A stretch of 39,330 nt of DNA from Candidatus Woesebacteria bacterium RIFCSPLOWO2_01_FULL_39_61 (lineage in GTDB: Bacteria > Patescibacteriota > Microgenomatia > UBA8517), in the NCBI GenBank assembly GCA_001793155.1, contig MGHI01000004.1, forward strand, positions 1-39,330. The letters run 5' to 3'. The position numbers and the translations under genes are program-made. The notes under the pieces are model-generated. The model was not told where the DNA came from. It saw only the letters and a list, made by a program, of their open reading frames with translations, and ran no database searches. Shown in pieces: positions 7,232-36,202 of the stretch. Positions within the stretch are counted from its first letter, which is position 1, and each line of letters begins with the position of its first letter.

Positions 7232-7267
7232 TTTCTTTGCCGTTCTTTCTTTTCGAAAGAAAGAACG
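7232..7267 (+). repeat. TTTCTTT tract plus CTTTCTTT/AAAGAAAG hairpin before pheT
   Basis: TTTCTTTGC then CGTTCTTTCTTT-TCG-AAAGAAAGAACG (7241-7267), 7 nt before the ATG. Confidence 0.8.
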
Positions 7268-7274
7268 AGAATGT

Positions 7275-9251
7275 ATGCTAGTCCCATTATCTTGGCTCAA
7301 AGAATATGTCAATATCAAGCTCCCGCTAAAGGATCTGATGTGGAAAATGACCGAAATAGGATTGACCACAGAAACTTATACCAAGCTTGGTGATGACGTT
7401 ATTTTGGATATTGAAGTTACCCCCAATAGAGCTGATTGGTTGAGTATTGTAGGAATCGCAAGGGAACTTTCCGCATTACAAAATACTCCCATGAAATTTC
7501 CCGTAGTATCTGAAATCGCGTCTCCTAAGGCAAATCTTCCTTTCAAAATTAATAATGACTTCAAATTATGTCCCCGCTACAGTGCTATAAGCATTAAGGG
7601 TGTTGTGCAAGCTCCTTCTCCCAAATGGATGCAGGATTATCTTACAAAAATAAGTTTGCGGCCGATAAATAATCTTGTTGATGTAACAAACTATGTCATG
7701 TTCGAATTCGGTAACCCCATACACGTTTTTGACTACGATAAACTCAAAAATGCGGAAATGACAATTATGACCACGAAGGGTGGAGAAAAATTTACCAGTG
7801 TTGATGAAATATCTTATAGATTGCCTAAGGATGCTATTATATTCAAAAGCGGCAGTGAGGTAGTAGACCTTTGCGGCATTAAAGGAGGAGCCAATTCCGG
7901 CGTATCCAAATCAACCAAAAATATACTTATACTGGTAGCAATTTATGACGGAAAATTAATAAGAAGAACCTCACAAAAACTTGATTTACTCTCTGATGCG
8001 TCACGCATTTTTGAGCGCAGAGAGGATACGGGCGGGACGCTTTTGACTCTTCAACGGACTGTGAATTTAATGACTGAGCTGGCGGGTGGCAATATCGCAT
8101 CCGAAATAGCCGATGTCAAAAAAGAAAAATTAAAGCTTTCGAAACTAACACTATCCTTATCTAACTTGGAAAAAGTTCTGGGGATTAAAATCGAAGACAA
8201 GGAAGTCTTAGCTACTCTTGACAGACTCAATTTATCACCGATTCTTAAGAATAATTTGATCGAGTGCACCATTCCGACATATCGAGCTGATTTAAAAATT
8301 GAAGAAGATCTTATAGAAGAGGTCGCAAGATTATTCGGATACAATAAATTCCCGAAAACTTTGCCATACGGTGCAACTCCTAAAGATAAAATCGCCTATT
8401 TTTTTGACCCAAAACCTAAACTGAGATTGAAAGAGCTGATGTTTGGCGCCGGGTTTATTGAAATCCAAACCCTATCCCTAACCTCTGAAGAATTTATTAA
8501 TAAATCTCAGTTAAATCTTGATCTTCATATTAAAATTGCAAACCCGGTGAGCAAGGAATACGAATATTTGCGCACCAGTCTTATTCCCTCGCTACTTTCC
8601 GCGGTCAAATTAAATAGCGACATAAAAAAATTGAAACTTTATGAACTTAATAAAGTTTATTTTGGCCCGATAGATCAGTCTCAGGAAGTTTATAAACTAT
8701 CGGGATTAGAAGTAAATACTAGCTTTAGGAAATTTAAGGCAAGTCTGGATTTAATCTTCGATCGGCTTAAGGTTAAAGATTATGATATCAAAATAACTAC
8801 AGTTACTAAATCTCTCTGGCATCCTACAAAAAGCGGGGTAATTGAAAAAGGTGATGAATTTATCGGAACTTTCGGTGAAATTCACCCGAAAGTATTGCAA
8901 AACTTTAAAATAAAGGAGAAAGTTTGGGGTTTTGAGCTTGATGAAAAAACCCTGGAAAAACTCACAAAAAAGATTATATACAAAGCCCCTAACCAGCATC
9001 CTCCTCAGATAGAGGATATAACACTAATAATACCTGATTGGGTTAAAGCTTCGGGTGTTATCGCAACAATTAAAAAATCCGATACGCATGTTTCCGAGAT
9101 AGAGTTAACCGATATATATCAAAAATCACACACATTCAGGATTTGGTACCAGGATCCTAAAAAAACCATGTCTGATAACGATGTAAAGATAATCCACAAC
9201 AAAATTCTGTCGAATCTTAACAAAAAATTCGAAGTAAACGAGAAGATATAA
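7275..9251 (+). CDS. pheT: Phenylalanine--tRNA ligase beta subunit (lacks the B2 OB-fold)
   Basis: LSWLKEYV joined almost directly to DIEVTPNRADWLS; INNLVDVTNYVM; PTYRADLKIEEDLIEEVARLFGY. Confidence 0.97.
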   Translation: MLVPLSWLKEYVNIKLPLKDLMWKMTEIGLTTETYTKLGDDVILDIEVTPNRADWLSIVGIARELSALQNTPMKFPVVSEIASPKANLPFKINNDFKLCPRYSAISIKGVVQAPSPKWMQDYLTKISLRPINNLVDVTNYVMFEFGNPIHVFDYDKLKNAEMTIMTTKGGEKFTSVDEISYRLPKDAIIFKSGSEVVDLCGIKGGANSGVSKSTKNILILVAIYDGKLIRRTSQKLDLLSDASRIFERREDTGGTLLTLQRTVNLMTELAGGNIASEIADVKKEKLKLSKLTLSLSNLEKVLGIKIEDKEVLATLDRLNLSPILKNNLIECTIPTYRADLKIEEDLIEEVARLFGYNKFPKTLPYGATPKDKIAYFFDPKPKLRLKELMFGAGFIEIQTLSLTSEEFINKSQLNLDLHIKIANPVSKEYEYLRTSLIPSLLSAVKLNSDIKKLKLYELNKVYFGPIDQSQEVYKLSGLEVNTSFRKFKASLDLIFDRLKVKDYDIKITTVTKSLWHPTKSGVIEKGDEFIGTFGEIHPKVLQNFKIKEKVWGFELDEKTLEKLTKKIIYKAPNQHPPQIEDITLIIPDWVKASGVIATIKKSDTHVSEIELTDIYQKSHTFRIWYQDPKKTMSDNDVKIIHNKILSNLNKKFEVNEKI

Positions 9252-9617
9252 CTAATTTTTATTTTCTTTGAGAGCAACAAAATCTCGCCAGTAAGCCTTA
9301 CTTTGTATTAGATCAACTACCGCCGGATGTGCTGGATGCTTTATCTGCATGCTATACAGTACCTCATCTATAACTTGGTCGATTTTCGGCCTTTCGAATA
9401 AATCATTTTTATCGGGGATTATGGTCCACTGGTTATAGCAATTTTCCGGAACAACCGATCTAATTGTTCTTACCATATTTGATCTTTCTTCGGAGTATTT
9501 TAGGGACGAAGGAGTAATTCCGGAAGTTGATTCAATAAAGCCTACCCACGCGTCTTTGACCTGTCCAAGAATATGTTCGTCAGAACTACAGTCAATCTTT
9601 ATCTCAGCTAATGCCAC
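9252..9617 (-). CDS. Hypothetical protein (121 aa)
   Basis: Fills the pheT-PBP gap exactly. GTG start preceded by TACAAT 8 nt upstream. No motif recognised. Confidence 0.65.
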   Translation of the reverse strand: MALAEIKIDCSSDEHILGQVKDAWVGFIESTSGITPSSLKYSEERSNMVRTIRSVVPENCYNQWTIIPDKNDLFERPKIDQVIDEVLYSMQIKHPAHPAVVDLIQSKAYWRDFVALKENKN

Positions 9618-9656
9618 TTTTATATATTGTAAACCTTAAGTTCAAGTTTCTGCCCT

Positions 9657-34108: not shown

Positions 34109-36073
34109 ATGGTGATTGATTTAAATAAAGACTATACAGCTCAACAAATTCAGGTACTTGAAGGGTTGGAGCCGGTGAGGAAAAGGCCGGGAATGTATAT
34201 CGGATCTACCGATCTTAGGGGTTTGCACGAATGTTTACGCGAAATAGTCGATAATTCGGCAGATGAGTTCTTCGCGGGAATTGCTAAAAATGTCTGGGTA
34301 TATATTCATAAGGACGGTTCGGCTACGATACAGGATGACGGACGCGGAATTCCTGTTGATAAACACGCAAGCGGAGTTTCAGCCCTGGAATTGACAATGA
34401 CCAAGCTCCATGCCGGTGGAAAATTCGGCGGGGGAGCGTACAAAGTTTCAGGAGGATTGCACGGAGTCGGAGCATCCGTTGTTAATGCGCTATCATCACG
34501 CTTTAGAGTCGTAGTTTTAAGAAACGGCAAAGCCTATTACCAGGAATACAAAAAAGGCGAACCGCAAAAACCCGTTTCCGAAGCATCTCAATCCCAACTC
34601 GATTCTTGGCTACCCAAAAGGTTAAGTGCCGAAATGGGTGACTCGGTTACGGGCACTATTACAACCTTCACACCCGACCCAACGGTTTTCAAAAACATCG
34701 AATTTGATTCCGAACGGATTAAAGCCCATTTGAGAGACCGGGCATATCTTGTCCCAACCCTATCTTTTCATTATTACGACGAAAGGACCGACGACGAAGC
34801 TCACTATTATTTTGAGGGTGGGATAAAGTCGCTGGTAGCTCACAGTAACCGGGAAAAAAACACGGTTTCAGAGGTAATTTATTTCAGTAGGCAAGATTCA
34901 AGTCAAAACATTACCGCGGAAGTAGCAATTCAGTATACGGATTCGTTCAGCGAAAACGTCAAGGGTTACGTTAACGGAATTTACACGGTTGACGGCGGAA
35001 CGCATGTAACCGGATTTCGCATGGCTTTGACCCGCGCAATTTCCGATTACGCGAAAAGGGCGGGTTTAACCGAAAAGATTCCCGGCGGAAACGGACTAAC
35101 CGGAGACGACATGAAGGAAGGATTAACGGCAGTCATTTATATCAAAATGCCTTCCGAATCGCTTCAATTCGAAAGCCAAACAAAAGCGAAACTCAACAAC
35201 CCCGAAATTCAAGGTTATGTTTCAAGCGTAGTCAAGGAAGGGTTGGATACCTACTTTGAGGAAAACCCGTCTGACGCAAAATCGGTCCTCGAGAAAATTT
35301 ATCTGGCTGCCAGGGCACGGCTTGCCGCACGCGCCGCAAAGGAAGCGGTGTTGCGAAAAGGAGCATTAGAGGGATCGGCTCTACCGGGAAAGCTGGCGGA
35401 CTGTCAATCCCGTGATGCGGAAATATCGGAATTGTATATTGTAGAGGGTGATTCGGCGGGCGGATCGGCAAAGCAGGGGAGGGATCGACGTTTCCAGGCA
35501 ATACTGCCTCTTGGCGGAAAAATTTTAAATACGGAAAGGGCGCATTTGGATAAAATTGTCAAATTTGAAGAAATAAAAGATCTTATAGTTGCTCTTGGAG
35601 CCGGAATCGGGGACGTTATTGATTACAATAAAATCCGATATCATAGAATAATTATAATGACCGATGCGGATGTTGACGGAGAACACATTAAAACGCTTCT
35701 TTTAACATTTTTCTTCAGACATATGAGTGAAGTGCTGCAAAGGGGATATTTGTACGTCGCACTTCCACCTCTTTACCGAATCCAGGTGGGGAAAGATGTA
35801 ACCTATGCATACACAGAGGAGGAAAAAGAGACGATTCTGAAAGAAAAAGGCAACGGAAAACTGACCGTCCAAAGATATAAGGGATTGGGAGAAATGAACC
35901 CCGAACAGCTCTGGGACACAACAATGGATCCCAAGGTAAGAATTTTAAAGCAGGTTATGAATGATGACGCCGAAGAAGCAGACAGAACCTTCACGACATT
36001 AATGGGCGAAGAAGTTGCCCCACGAAAAAGATTTATCCAAACGCACGCAAAGCTAGCAACCCTGGACATTTAA
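34109..36073 (+). CDS. gyrB: DNA gyrase subunit B
   Basis: [61 protein letters not shown]. Confidence 0.96.
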
Positions 36074-36124
36074 ATTGGAGTTACGTATTGAAATAATAGT
36101 ATTTATTAAATTATAATTGTAGCT

Positions 36125-36147
36125 GGACTCAGACAAGAGTCCTTTTT
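36125..36147 (+). terminator. Terminator-like hairpin after gyrB
   Basis: GGACTC-AGACAA-GAGTCC-TTTTT; a TTGAAA-18-TATAAT promoter candidate (36088-36117) lies just upstream. Confidence 0.55.
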
Positions 36148-36166
36148 GTATAGAAATTTGTTTTAT

Positions 36167-36202
36167 TTTCATTGCCAAACTTTCTTTATTAAAGAAAGTT
36201 TG
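36167..36202 (+). repeat. CTTTCTTT/AAAGAAAG hairpin before hppA
   Basis: TTTCATTGC then CAAACTTTCTTT-ATT-AAAGAAAGTTTG (36176-36202), 8 nt before the ATG. Confidence 0.8.

What the first reader, a model, noticed from the sequence alone, without database searches (positions are those of the whole stretch)
7232..36202. Covarying CTTTCTTT/AAAGAAAG hairpin family at a fixed distance from start codons, with a spare TTTCTTT strand
Seen: four clean copies (7241-7267, 15732-15757, 19164-19193, 36176-36202) and a degenerate one (6150-6188). The 8-bp core is invariant, the outer 4 bp differ but stay paired (CGTT/AACG, CTCA/TGAG, CACA/TGTG, CAAA/TTTG) and loops vary. Three end 7-8 nt before the ATG of pheT, rpmF and hppA, where an SD would sit, and none has a canonical SD. 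Each clean copy is preceded by TTTCTTT (TTTCATT before hppA), which could compete for AAAGAAAG or lie on the duplex as a pyrimidine triple helix. Inference: an undescribed translation-initiation or processing element, or a domesticated small repeat. The pilM-pilN copy does not precede a plus-strand start, which favours a repeat origin.
Basis: partly seen in the sequence, partly recalled or inferred. Interest (0 to 1): 0.75.

Follow-up and report, generated by a model that had tools for sequence, protein, structure and literature searches.

The report
Hairpin repeat docked before gene starts
The hairpins are copies of a small inserted DNA repeat (a pyrimidine tract plus a 12-base-pair hairpin) that in this tiny-genome bacterium sits just in front of protein and tRNA genes, and whose core recurs letter for letter in very distant microbes; it is not a special ribosome-binding signal.

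Summary
The four window hairpins belong to 25 oriented copies in this 1.08-Mb genome, which earlier scan notes call Candidatus Woesebacteria.

Unit: TTTCTTTG(C/T/A)-C-NNN-CTTTCTTT-loop-AAAGAAAG-NNN-G plus a 7-10-nt A-rich tail. The three NNN pairs covary.

- **Position:** 19 of 25 copies end 7-10 nt before a same-strand gene start (12 ATGs, 6 tRNA 5' ends, 1 tRNA fragment). Three abut a convergent stop codon.
- **Insertion:** at pheS-pheT and S8-L6 the nearest relatives have 1-5-nt junctions; this genome has 45 and 47 extra nt. The "fixed distance" is therefore the element's own tail.
- **Transcription:** it lies downstream of a conserved ftsZ promoter, in either orientation, so it is inferred to be transcribed.
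- **No SD role:** SD-like motifs are at background level genome-wide, and the tRNA copies rule out a translation-only role.
- **Spread:** the exact core occurs in at least seven phyla by record title (up to 129 copies per genome) and in none of the viral contigs.
- **Class:** the layout matches class IV intrastrand-triplex motifs (Holder 2015), and the spare tract tracks the purine arm in two variants.

The scan probably met this family once before on other DNA (e1-916403), and similar hairpin-plus-third-arm repeats several times. The spreading mechanism and any host function are unknown.

The parts
7232..7274 (+). Copy 1. Spare tract TTTCTTTG 7232-7239, C 7240, 12-bp hairpin 7241-7267, tail AGAATGT 7268-7274. 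It fills the pheS stop (7227-7229) to pheT ATG (7275) junction.
   Evidence: (E 5.9e-9). Empty junctions of 1-2 nt in G011, G018, G035.
15723..15765 (+). Copy 2. Spare tract 15723-15730, hairpin 15732-15757, 8-nt tail, then the rpmF (L32) ATG at 15766.
   Evidence: (E 3.3e-9). The rpmF of G028 carries a copy too.
19155..19200 (+). Copy 3. Spare tract TTTCTTTA 19155-19162, hairpin 19164-19193, tail 19194-19200. It is inverted relative to the minus-strand pilM operon, and its tail abuts the pilM stop codon (19201-19203).
   Evidence: (E 1.1e-8).
36167..36210 (+). Copy 4. Spare tract variant TTTCATTG 36167-36174, hairpin 36176-36202, 8-nt tail, then the pyrophosphatase (hppA) ATG at 36211.
   Evidence: (E 9.3e-10). 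Empty site in G011 and G018.
6159..6179 (+). Possible relic: a 7-bp CTTTCTT/AAGAAAG hairpin without a spare tract, 15 nt before the pheS ATG (6195).
   Evidence: Not reported by model R1 at E<=1.
36088..36142 (+). Context for copy 4: a promoter-like site TTGAAA-18-TATAAT (36088-36117) and a leader hairpin with T-run (36125-36142) upstream of the element. The same layout is seen in G011, which lacks the element.
   Evidence: consensus matches only.

Best explanation
The hairpins are copies of a small, oriented, non-autonomous dispersed repeat of about 44-60 nt. Each unit has a 5' pyrimidine tract TTTCTTTG, a 2-nt link, and a 12-bp hairpin with an invariant CTTTCTTT/AAAGAAAG core. Three covarying base pairs lie below the core, the apical loop is free, and a 7-10-nt A-rich tail follows.

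Shown:
- The whole unit, tail included, is an insertion into junctions that are only 1-5 nt long in the nearest relatives.
- It has landed independently, in either orientation, at the same junctions in different genera.
- It lies downstream of a conserved sigma-70-type promoter-like motif and inside operons.
- The same core occurs in many phyla as a high-copy intergenic repeat.

Inferred:
- It is transcribed.
- The constant 7-10 nt to the ATG or tRNA 5' end is the element's own tail. Copies are found where this compact, SD-poor genome can take them: the last few nucleotides before a start, or just after a stop.
- In the RNA it makes a stable leader hairpin (-14 to -16 kcal/mol) ending 7-10 nt from the start. 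This may affect mRNA stability or initiation, but it is not an SD substitute.

Its three-block layout is that of class IV (pyrimidine-motif) intrastrand triplex repeats. How it spreads is unknown; no cognate transposase was found.
For: - **Copy number and orientation:** model R1 finds 25 sense-oriented loci in G000 at E<=1.1e-4. The reverse-strand echoes of the same hairpins score 22-38 bits against 40-75.5 for the sense reads.
- **Context in G000:** 12 ATGs at +7 to +9, 6 tRNA genes at +7 to +10, 1 tRNA-Glu 5' fragment at +7, 3 convergent stops at +7/+8, and 3 other.
- **Empty sites, pheS-pheT:** TAA-A-ATG in G011 and G018, TAA-CT-ATG in G035, and 45 nt in G000.
- **Empty sites, S8-L6:** TAA-TTAT-ATG in G008 against TAA-TTAT+47 nt+ATG in G000. 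G022 has an inverted copy at the same junction. hppA is empty in G011 and G018.
- **ftsZ:** a conserved TTGnnT-N17-TAnAAT promoter-like motif lies upstream. The element sits downstream of it in 5 of 28 genomes: sense in G000, G008, G022 and G028; inverted in G030; and as a second, inverted copy in G000.
- **Loop tolerance:** loops take 16-28-nt nested insertions in both orientations.
- **Other phyla:** Copies per genome are 129, 94, 15, 7 and 2 in five genomes, with 0 for the reversed-pattern control.
- **Unit size elsewhere:** about 46 nt in Thermodesulfobacteriota. A 158-nt mosaic indel holding one copy separates G067 from G071.
- **SD-poor genome:**
- **No terminator tail:** A follows the stem in 53 of 56 copies.
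Against: - **Recurrent genes:** the element recurs before the same genes in different genera: ftsZ in 4, gyrA, lysS, mraY, efp, L27, L32 and S20 in 2 each, and tRNA-Glu in 2.
- **Gene classes:** it is concentrated on translation genes and tRNAs. That fits a selected regulon, or targeting of highly transcribed DNA, as well as it fits tolerance.
- **Placement:** only 3 of 25 copies lie away from a gene boundary although longer spacers exist. Passive tolerance alone is therefore a weak account of where copies sit.
- **Core identity:** a core identical across phyla is unusual for REP- or MITE-type repeats.
- **No transposase link:** Y1 transposase genes occur in 40 of 61 relatives without relation to copy number. 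G008 and G017 have copies but no Y1 hit. The four RAYT-like genes of G000 and the single one of G067 are flanked by other hairpins.
- **No RNA data:** transcription, RNA ends and RNA folding are all inferred.
Confidence: 0.6

Rival explanations
1. It is a selected cis-acting leader RNA module shared by a housekeeping regulon (ribosomal proteins, tRNAs, EF-P, aminoacyl-tRNA synthetases, FtsZ, GyrA, NusG). The 5' pyrimidine tract lies in the major groove of the hairpin (U.A-U and C+.G-C triples) or competes for the purine arm. This would give a clamp that shields the transcript 5' region or is read by a trans-acting factor.
For: - The same genes carry it in several genera.
- In G000, 5 of 25 copies precede ribosomal-protein genes and 7 precede tRNA genes or a tRNA fragment.
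- The tract-to-stem spacing shows no gaps in alignment A1, while the apical loop varies from 1 to 28 nt.
- In a Lentisphaerae T-only paralogue, the tract's T-run length equals the purine arm's A-run length in 18 of 20 copies.
- In subfamily B of G000, the first tract base changes together with the base pair it would overlie in the parallel register.
- The layout is class IV of PMC4666352, which states that pyrimidine-type intrastrand triplexes also occur in RNA (introduction read).
Against: - 23 of 28 family genomes lack it before ftsZ and make do with a short plain leader.
- Inverted copies occur in the same leaders and behind stop codons.
- Two clean compensatory stem changes (C29 1967; G028 rpmF) and several tract variants (hppA, C16, C46) are not matched in the third strand.
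- In other phyla, copies sit at both gene ends and at variable distances.
- The 18 of 20 in Lentisphaerae may be two amplified subtypes, that is, one event.
- There is no RNA or biophysical evidence.
Confidence: 0.22
2. It is a translation-initiation element that replaces the Shine-Dalgarno sequence. The hairpin would occupy the place of the SD-antiSD helix. Its 5' arm CUUUCU equals the last six bases of the 16S rRNA, and its 3' arm AGAAAG is complementary to them.
For: - The hairpin ends 7-9 nt before the ATG in 12 of 12 protein-linked copies of G000.
- The 16S rRNA ends GGAUCACCUCCUUUCU in G000, G008, G014, G022 and G028.
- T precedes the ATG in all 12 G000 cases, against 46% genome-wide.
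Against: - Seven copies precede tRNA genes or a tRNA fragment, and three are inverted behind stop codons.
- The genome as a whole shows no SD enrichment, so nothing needs replacing.
- The orthologous genes in relatives start without it.
- The core is the same in Proteobacteria, whose 16S tails differ (the last point is recalled, not tested).
Confidence: 0.05
3. It is a Nus-factor (boxA-boxB, nut-like) antitermination site. The tract UUUCUUUG(A/C)C would act as boxA and the hairpin as boxB, protecting untranslated or weakly translated transcripts from Rho.
For: - The tract shares TCTTTG(A)C with the rrn-leader boxA-like sequences of this family: GCTCTTTGACAA in G014 and GTACTTTGACA in G000.
- The order of linear box then hairpin in a leader, before tRNAs and translation genes, matches.
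- PMC5725501 (passages read) reports boxA-like sites before translation-related genes.
Against: - It misses positions 1 and 9 of the published consensus GYTCTTTAANA.
- The tract is identical in gamma- and beta-proteobacteria, Clostridia and an archaeon, so it does not follow the lineage's own boxA.
- Inverted copies and copies behind stop codons cannot present a boxA.
- The rrn leader of G000 does not carry the element.
Confidence: 0.04
4. It is a hairpin-type promoter whose start site lies 8-10 nt past the stem, giving leaderless mRNAs and leaderless tRNAs.
For: The spacing is the same to ATGs and to mature tRNA 5' ends. No fixed -35/-10 lies upstream of the element.
Against: - A conserved promoter-like motif lies upstream of it at ftsZ, and a promoter-like site upstream of it at hppA.
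- It sits between two tRNA genes 49 nt apart and inside pheST and the S8-L6 operon.
- Inverted copies lie in the same leaders.
- 16-28-nt insertions in the loop are tolerated.
- The position that would be -11 is a variable stem base, A in 8 of 23 copies.
Confidence: 0.03
5. It is a plain intrinsic terminator or a 3'-end stabiliser of the upstream gene.
For: It is a stable 12-bp hairpin in intergenic DNA. Three copies in G000 directly follow a stop codon on the other strand. The hppA copy passes a lenient terminator scan.
Against: - The stem is followed by A in 53 of 56 copies and by an A-rich tail; on the other strand it is followed by GGCAAAGAAA.
- The rpmF copy is not called a terminator.
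- Canonical hairpin-plus-T-run terminators exist in the same genome.
- 19 of 25 copies are oriented toward, and adjacent to, a downstream start.
Confidence: 0.03

Closest known systems
Intrastrand triplex motif repeats (BoxC = PIT elements = TM_ECO; classes I-IV of Holder et al. 2015, PMC4666352; introduction and sections 10, 15, 16 read)
   Same: Three consecutive blocks lie on one strand: a third-strand block, a pyrimidine arm and a purine arm, in the order that defines class IV. The repeat is short, multi-copy, mostly intergenic and patchy among relatives. It is linked to indel differences between close genomes. No function is known.
   Different: TM_ECO is a G/C-rich class II purine motif of Proteobacteria with 9-nt blocks and 3-6-nt loops. 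This element is an A/T-rich pyrimidine motif with 7 possible triplets. The paper does not describe this sequence family in the parts I read. Docking before starts and identity across phyla are not reported there.
REP/BIME elements mobilised by RAYT (Y1/HUH) transposases (PMC3733652 and PMC3184786; abstracts seen in the search listing only)
   Same: Small extragenic hairpins with a conserved 5' tag, found in transcribed spacers. They combine with other repeat modules into mosaics and reach tens to more than a hundred copies per genome.
   Different: There is no GTAG or CGTC tag. The RAYT-like genes in G000 and G067 are flanked by other hairpins. The core is A/T-rich and identical across phyla, whereas REPs are usually species-specific (the last point is recalled).
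IS200/IS605 ends and their gene-less derivatives (PATEs); IS608 as the model (recalled; earlier scan notes e1-1000680 and e1-1009051 report such mini-elements in this genome)
   Same: A strand-specific hairpin with a conserved 5' flank and a short fixed 3' tail. Insertion leaves no obvious long target duplication.
   Different: There is only one hairpin per unit, and no transposase gene is bounded by it. The target and cleavage sites are unknown. A TA duplication is compatible with 2 of 3 empty-site comparisons but is not established.
boxA-boxB (nut) antitermination sites (PMC5725501; passages read)
   Same: A U-rich CUUUG box followed by a hairpin in leaders, upstream of translation-related genes.
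   Different: It fails consensus positions 1 and 9, does not follow lineage-specific boxA, occurs inverted and behind stop codons, and is absent from the rrn leader of G000.

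Membership tests
Class IV intrastrand triplex motif (PMC4666352) | Order on one strand: 5' Hoogsteen pyrimidine block, then pyrimidine Watson-Crick block, then purine block 3' | tested here: met
   TTTCTTT, then CTTTCTTT, then AAAGAAAG in 25 of 25 G000 copies and in all 144 copies of other phyla that fit the search pattern. 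Definition from the paper's introduction.
Class IV intrastrand triplex motif (PMC4666352) | Third block gives T.A-T / C+.G-C triplets in parallel register over 6-15 positions, with at most one mismatch if 7 or more | tested here: met
   There are 7 of 7 possible triplets (TTTCTTT over AAAGAAA). TTTCTTT is its own mirror image, so the main family cannot tell the parallel register from the antiparallel one. Subfamily B fits the parallel register at 6 of 6 positions.
   The link from tract to pyrimidine arm is G-N-C-N-N-N-C, 7 nt, and four of these are paired in the lower stem. The apical loop is mostly 1-7 nt, with four of 16-28 nt among 56 copies.
Class IV intrastrand triplex motif (PMC4666352) | Three-way covariation, or physical proof that the triplex forms | tested here: inconclusive
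   For: T-run length equals A-run length in 18 of 20 copies of the Lentisphaerae paralogue, and the end triplet changes together in subfamily B. Against: two compensatory stem changes are not followed by the tract.
REP elements with a cognate RAYT | Conserved GTAG or CGTC tag at one end of the palindrome | tested here: not met
   The flank is TTTCTTTGNC. The GTAG-tagged REP of G067 is a different repeat.
REP elements with a cognate RAYT | A single-copy Y1 transposase gene flanked by the repeat, with co-occurrence across genomes | tested here: not met
   PF01797 occurs in 40 of 61 relatives without relation to element counts. G008 and G017 carry copies but have no hit. The flanks of 4 such genes in G000 and of the one in G067 carry other inverted repeats; one inverted copy lies 104 nt upstream of the G067 gene, outside those repeats.
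boxA / nut antitermination site | Match to the boxA consensus, including its critical positions, and to the organism's own rrn boxA | tested here: not met
   Positions 1 and 9 of GYTCTTTAANA differ. The rrn boxA-like boxes are GCTCTTTGACAA and GTACTTTGACA. The tract is unchanged in phyla with other boxA sequences.
Intrinsic terminator | G+C-rich hairpin followed directly by a U-run | tested here: not met
   A follows the stem in 53 of 56 copies. One of the two window copies scanned passes a lenient scan.
Shine-Dalgarno-type ribosome binding site | Purine-rich complement of the 16S 3' end 5-9 nt before the start, enriched at true starts | tested here: not met
   There is no GGAG, GAGG or AGGA in the tails. 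The AAGG in the tail lies 2-3 nt from the ATG. The genome-wide SD-like rate is 11% against 10% for controls.
Rfam families | Match to a curated covariance model | tested here: not met
   There are 0 matches at gathering score in the window. Nothing covers the element at E<=0.1 or E<=1 in 8 and 18 loci respectively.

The most novel reading that the evidence does not exclude
The unit may be a functional nucleic-acid 'clamp': a pyrimidine tract that lays itself into the groove of its own hairpin as a class IV triple helix, in RNA or single-stranded DNA. The three-strand constraint would keep it nearly letter-perfect from ultra-small CPR bacteria to Proteobacteria, Clostridia and a methanogen. In CPR bacteria it would have been recruited as a standard leader module placed 7-10 nt before the start codons and tRNA 5' ends of the most heavily used genes, for example to shield the transcript 5' region or to be read by a universal factor.
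Probability: 0.15. Interest if true: 0.85.

Novelty: new variant of a known kind. Interest (0 to 1): 0.6.

Why it matters
- **Annotation:** conserved hairpins before start codons in these SD-poor genomes need not be ribosome-binding or regulatory signals. Here they arrive as ready-made insertions that bring their own spacer.
- **Mobile DNA:** a roughly 35-nt core identical in at least seven phyla by record title, with no transposase in sight and no copy in 2.9 million viral contigs, has no ready explanation.
- **Nucleic-acid structure:** this is a natural, abundant, A/T-rich class IV triplex candidate. It has internal variants that look like three-strand covariation, and it lies in positions inferred to be transcribed, so the long-open question of whether intrastrand triplexes form in cells could be tested on RNA as well as DNA.
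- **CPR biology:** the data show near-leaderless, SD-free gene starts and 1-5-nt operon junctions that still accept 45-nt structured inserts in front of essential genes.

Tried and rejected
- **RNA evidence:** no RNA holder was listed for window 13000-21000, so no reads could be laid.
- **Rfam:** nothing at gathering score in the window. Only tRNA, 16S and weak unrelated hits appeared in 8 loci. In 18 loci of other phyla there were only sub-threshold hits beside the element, not on it: TwoAYGGAY at 40.2 bits against a cut-off of 43, and Bp1_Cand684 at 33 bits against 44.
- **Fixed promoter upstream:** position-wise information upstream of the tract is at most 0.4 bit, T-richness only. TAnnnT boxes 0-10 nt upstream occur in 21 of 55 copies against 19.5 in shuffles; 380 of 1000 shuffles were as high.
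- **Strand test by wobble pairs:** 10 G.U against 3 A.C among 672 stem cells, or 7 against 3 without one mis-registered copy. This is too few to decide.
- **Y1/RAYT link:** rejected.
- **SRP and RNase P RNA:** searched to name the unknown downstream regions. There was no SRP hit, and only a weak full-length RNase P hit of 21.9 bits elsewhere in the genome.
- **TA target duplication:** compatible with the S8-L6 and hppA sites but not with pheS-pheT. Left open.
- **Literature:** searches for CPR promoters or leaderless genes, for CPR repeats, for Patescibacteria plus SD, and for the motif letters gave nothing on this element. One search failed on syntax. An earlier-findings look-up with a window copy found nothing, as did one with an Oscillospiraceae copy.

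Full report
**1. The observation**

CTTTCTTT-N2-8-AAAGAAAG occurs four times in the 39-kb window against 0.01 expected; 0 of 100 shuffles reached four.

- Each stem has 12 pairs: an invariant outer C-G, three variable pairs, and the 8-bp core.
- Each is preceded by TTTCTTT(G/A) and one more base; the hppA copy has TTTCATT.
- As RNA the four units fold at -13.8 to -15.6 kcal/mol, z -3.1 to -4.3.
- The downstream genes are pheT, rpmF (L32) and a membrane pyrophosphatase.
- The third copy lies between two minus-strand genes, and its tail ends at the pilM stop codon.
- The "degenerate copy" before pheS is a 7-bp hairpin without the tract, and my model does not report it.

**2. The family in this genome**

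The window is a whole contig of a 1.08-Mb, 46-contig, 39% G+C assembly. Earlier scan notes call it Candidatus Woesebacteria; I did not test the name.

- Exact core matches number 17.
- I aligned 23 oriented copies (A1). 98.2% of 276 stem cells pair, and 35 cells carry changes on both sides. 0 of 500 shuffles did as well, and slid registers pair at most 58.7%.
- Covariance model R1 finds 25 sense-oriented loci at E<=1.1e-4. The opposite strand of the same hairpins scores far lower, so the unit is oriented.

What follows each copy:

| Downstream feature | Copies | Distance from stem |
|---|---|---|
| Protein starts, all ATG (pheT, L32, pyrophosphatase, S20, L6, L1, NrdR, a GH15-like enzyme, PilC, FtsZ, ParB, L27) | 12 | 7-9 nt |
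| Called tRNA genes, of 38 tRNA calls in the genome (Leu x2, Ala, Pro, Arg, Asp) | 6 | 7-10 nt |
| A 5' fragment of tRNA-Glu | 1 | 7 nt |
| Stop codon of a convergent gene | 3 | 7-8 nt |
| Other | 3 | - |

The three others are:
- an inverted copy in the ftsZ leader;
- one about 260 nt past the 16S 3' end;
- one before an unnamed 130-nt stretch.

By my rough estimate, slots 7-10 nt before a start make up about 2% of intergenic positions, so 19 of 25 is far from random.

**3. It is not a ribosome-binding device**

- The tRNA copies alone argue against this.
- SD-like 4-mers precede 77 of 673 first starts (11%), against 198 of 1980 internal controls (10%).
- In 358 unambiguous starts the upstream region is simply A/T-rich.
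- The 16S rRNA keeps a normal CCUCCUUUCU tail.
- Lack of an SD is therefore the rule here, not a mark of these genes.

**4. It is an insertion, and is inferred to be transcribed**

- **ftsZ.** In 28 genomes of the family, ftsZ has a conserved TTGnnT-N17-TAnAAT promoter-like motif followed by cctgc. In 23 genomes a short plain leader follows. In G008, G022, G028 and G000 the element sits, in sense, between that motif and the ATG. In G030 it sits there inverted, and G000 has an inverted copy as well as the sense one.
- **pheS-pheT.** The four nearest relatives read TAA-A-ATG (G011, G018), TAA-CT-ATG (G035) or have 22 nt (G008). G000 has 45 nt, all of it the element.
- **S8-L6.** G008 reads TAA-TTAT-ATG and G000 reads TAA-TTAT, 47 nt of element, then ATG. 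G011, G018 and G035 have 2-5 nt. G022 carries an inverted copy at the same junction, next to the S8 stop.
- **hppA.** G011 and G018 lack the element. A promoter-like site and a leader hairpin lie upstream in both G000 and G011.
- **tRNA spacer.** One copy fills a 49-nt spacer between two tRNA-Leu genes.
- **Loops.** Loops carry nested 16-28-nt two-hairpin inserts in either orientation in G022 and G014.

The unit therefore includes its 7-10-nt tail, which explains the constant distance to the start. It has entered the same junctions more than once.

No fixed -35/-10 lies upstream, and the stem is followed by A, not by a T-run, in 53 of 56 copies. With its position behind promoter-like motifs and inside operons, this speaks against a promoter or a terminator. 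Transcription is inferred from these positions; no RNA data exist.

**5. Relatives**

- Of 61 genomes (G000 plus 60 relatives), 12 have a match at E<=0.001. G022 has 19 matches and G028 has 11, a few being reverse echoes. Nine others have 1-3, including two genomes of other families of the order.
- The genes behind them recur. ftsZ carries a sense copy in 4 genera.
- Each of these recurs in 2 genera: gyrA (plus one further Patescibacteria MAG), lysS, mraY, efp, L27, L32, S20 and tRNA-Glu.
- Single cases are nusG, S7, S16, S18, pilM, an Hsp20-type gene and others.
- This recurrence, and the weight on translation genes and tRNAs, is the main evidence that the element is more than junk, or that it targets highly transcribed DNA.

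**6. Other phyla**

- By record title these are Thermodesulfobacteriota/Deltaproteobacteria, Lentisphaerae, Xanthomonadales, Pseudomonadaceae and Burkholderiales (Burkholderia, Paraburkholderia, Ralstonia, Oxalicibacterium). Also hit were Clostridia (Butyricicoccus, Oscillospiraceae, Ruminococcus), Spirochaetota, a Methanosarcinales archaeon, Microgenomates and Patescibacteria.
- Whole-genome counts are 129, 94, 15, 7 and 2, with 0 for the reversed pattern. There are 0 matches in the viral contigs.
- In Thermodesulfobacteriota the shared unit is about 46 nt and lies at both ends of ordinary genes in both orientations. It combines with other repeats. G067 differs from G071 by a 158-nt mosaic block that holds one copy and is bounded by a 20-nt direct repeat.
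- In Lentisphaerae and Proteobacteria it is the centre of longer repeats.
- The lower stem is fully paired in strict register in 80 of 144 such copies.

**7. What mobilises it is unknown**

- Y1 transposase genes occur in 40 of 61 relatives, without relation to copy number.
- The four in G000 and the single ones in G067, G068, G065 and G066 are not bounded by this element. The G067 gene sits between GTAG-type REPs.

**8. The spare tract**

- Holder et al. 2015 (PMC4666352) define class IV intrastrand triplex motifs as 5' Hoogsteen pyrimidine block, pyrimidine block, purine block. That is this layout, with 7 possible T.A-T/C+.G-C triplets.
- TTTCTTT is its own mirror image, so the main family cannot separate a triplex from simple strand competition.
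- In favour of an interaction, a Lentisphaerae paralogue has T-only blocks, and the tract's T-run equals the purine arm's A-run in 18 of 20 copies (4/4 eight times, 6/6 ten times). The pyrimidine arm keeps six T's in most of them.
- Also in favour, in G000's subfamily B the first tract base changes together with the base pair it would overlie in the parallel register.
- Against it, two compensatory stem changes in the main family are not followed by the tract.
- I therefore rate an interaction between tract and purine arm as likely, and a triple helix as possible but unproven.

**9. Other readings**

- A boxA/nut reading is attractive because the family's rrn leaders carry GCTCTTTGACAA or GTACTTTGACA. 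But the tract misses consensus positions, does not follow lineage-specific boxA, and occurs inverted.
- The SD-mimic, promoter and terminator readings fail for the reasons given above.

**10. Verdict**

This is a real, non-random, oriented repeat family. It is a new variant of the known kind "small hairpin repeats with a third arm" (BoxC/PIT/TM_ECO, REP-like).

Three features make it notable:
- it docks exactly at gene boundaries in a CPR genome;
- it carries its own spacer;
- its core is identical across phyla.

Function and spreading mechanism remain open.

The scan has probably met the same family once before on other DNA (e1-916403 shares 6 of 17 words with a Thermodesulfobacteriota copy). 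It has met similar three-arm repeats several times.

Noticed in passing
G000:C13:10476-10825 (locus L019 380-900, minus strand): A tRNA-Glu 5' fragment is followed by a GIY-YIG-like ORF and then a complete tRNA-Glu. This looks like a mobile insertion into the tRNA gene that regenerated the gene. The hairpin element stayed with the old 5' fragment.
   Followed up: partly
G000:C21 (locus L075 about 3249-3745, minus strand): The 16S rRNA gene carries an insertion of about 500 nt near its 5' end with an open frame. It is of the intervening-sequence type already noted for this genome.
   Followed up: no
L062, L064, L067 (G022) and L050 (G014), apical loops of the element: A 16-28-nt two-mini-hairpin module (GAGC-loop-GCTC and GCGCC-loop-GGCGT) is inserted in the loop of four copies, in both orientations. 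It is a second, nested small mobile unit.
   Followed up: partly
G000:C21:1041-1070, 16512-16541, 26139-26168; C44:10533-10562; C23:7748-7779: Subfamily B: (C)CTTCTTTG + ATTA-CTTTCTTG-ggtaag-CAAGAAAG-TAAT forms the 3' end of a longer repeat of about 140 nt. It may be the junction repeat of the cassette array reported earlier for this genome.
   Followed up: partly
window 36088-36142 and G011 (L328): The pyrophosphatase gene has a conserved promoter-like site followed at once by a hairpin with a T-run in its leader. This could be an attenuator.
   Followed up: no
window 36167-36215: The hppA copy's tract variant UUCAU is complementary to the start region AUGAA, and the two are paired in the predicted fold.
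   Followed up: no
whole genome G000: Gene starts show no SD enrichment, -10-like boxes lie 6-20 nt before many ATGs, and operon junctions are 1-5 nt. Gene organisation is near-leaderless and SD-free, although the 16S anti-SD tail is intact.
   Followed up: partly
G000:C39:81510-81640, minus strand: One copy is followed by an unnamed stretch of about 130 nt (it begins GGGGCGCUACUACGUGC) before tRNA-Glu. It has no Rfam match.
   Followed up: partly
G000:C21:20989-21015; G022:C30:14814-14873; G014 (L294): Inverted copies (partial in G014) lie 200-260 nt past the 16S 3' end, just after the trailer half of the 16S processing stem, in three genera.
   Followed up: partly
G000:C26:57827-58266: The only RNase P RNA candidate is a weak full-length match of 21.9 bits against a cut-off of 100. 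No SRP RNA was found with RF00169.
   Followed up: no
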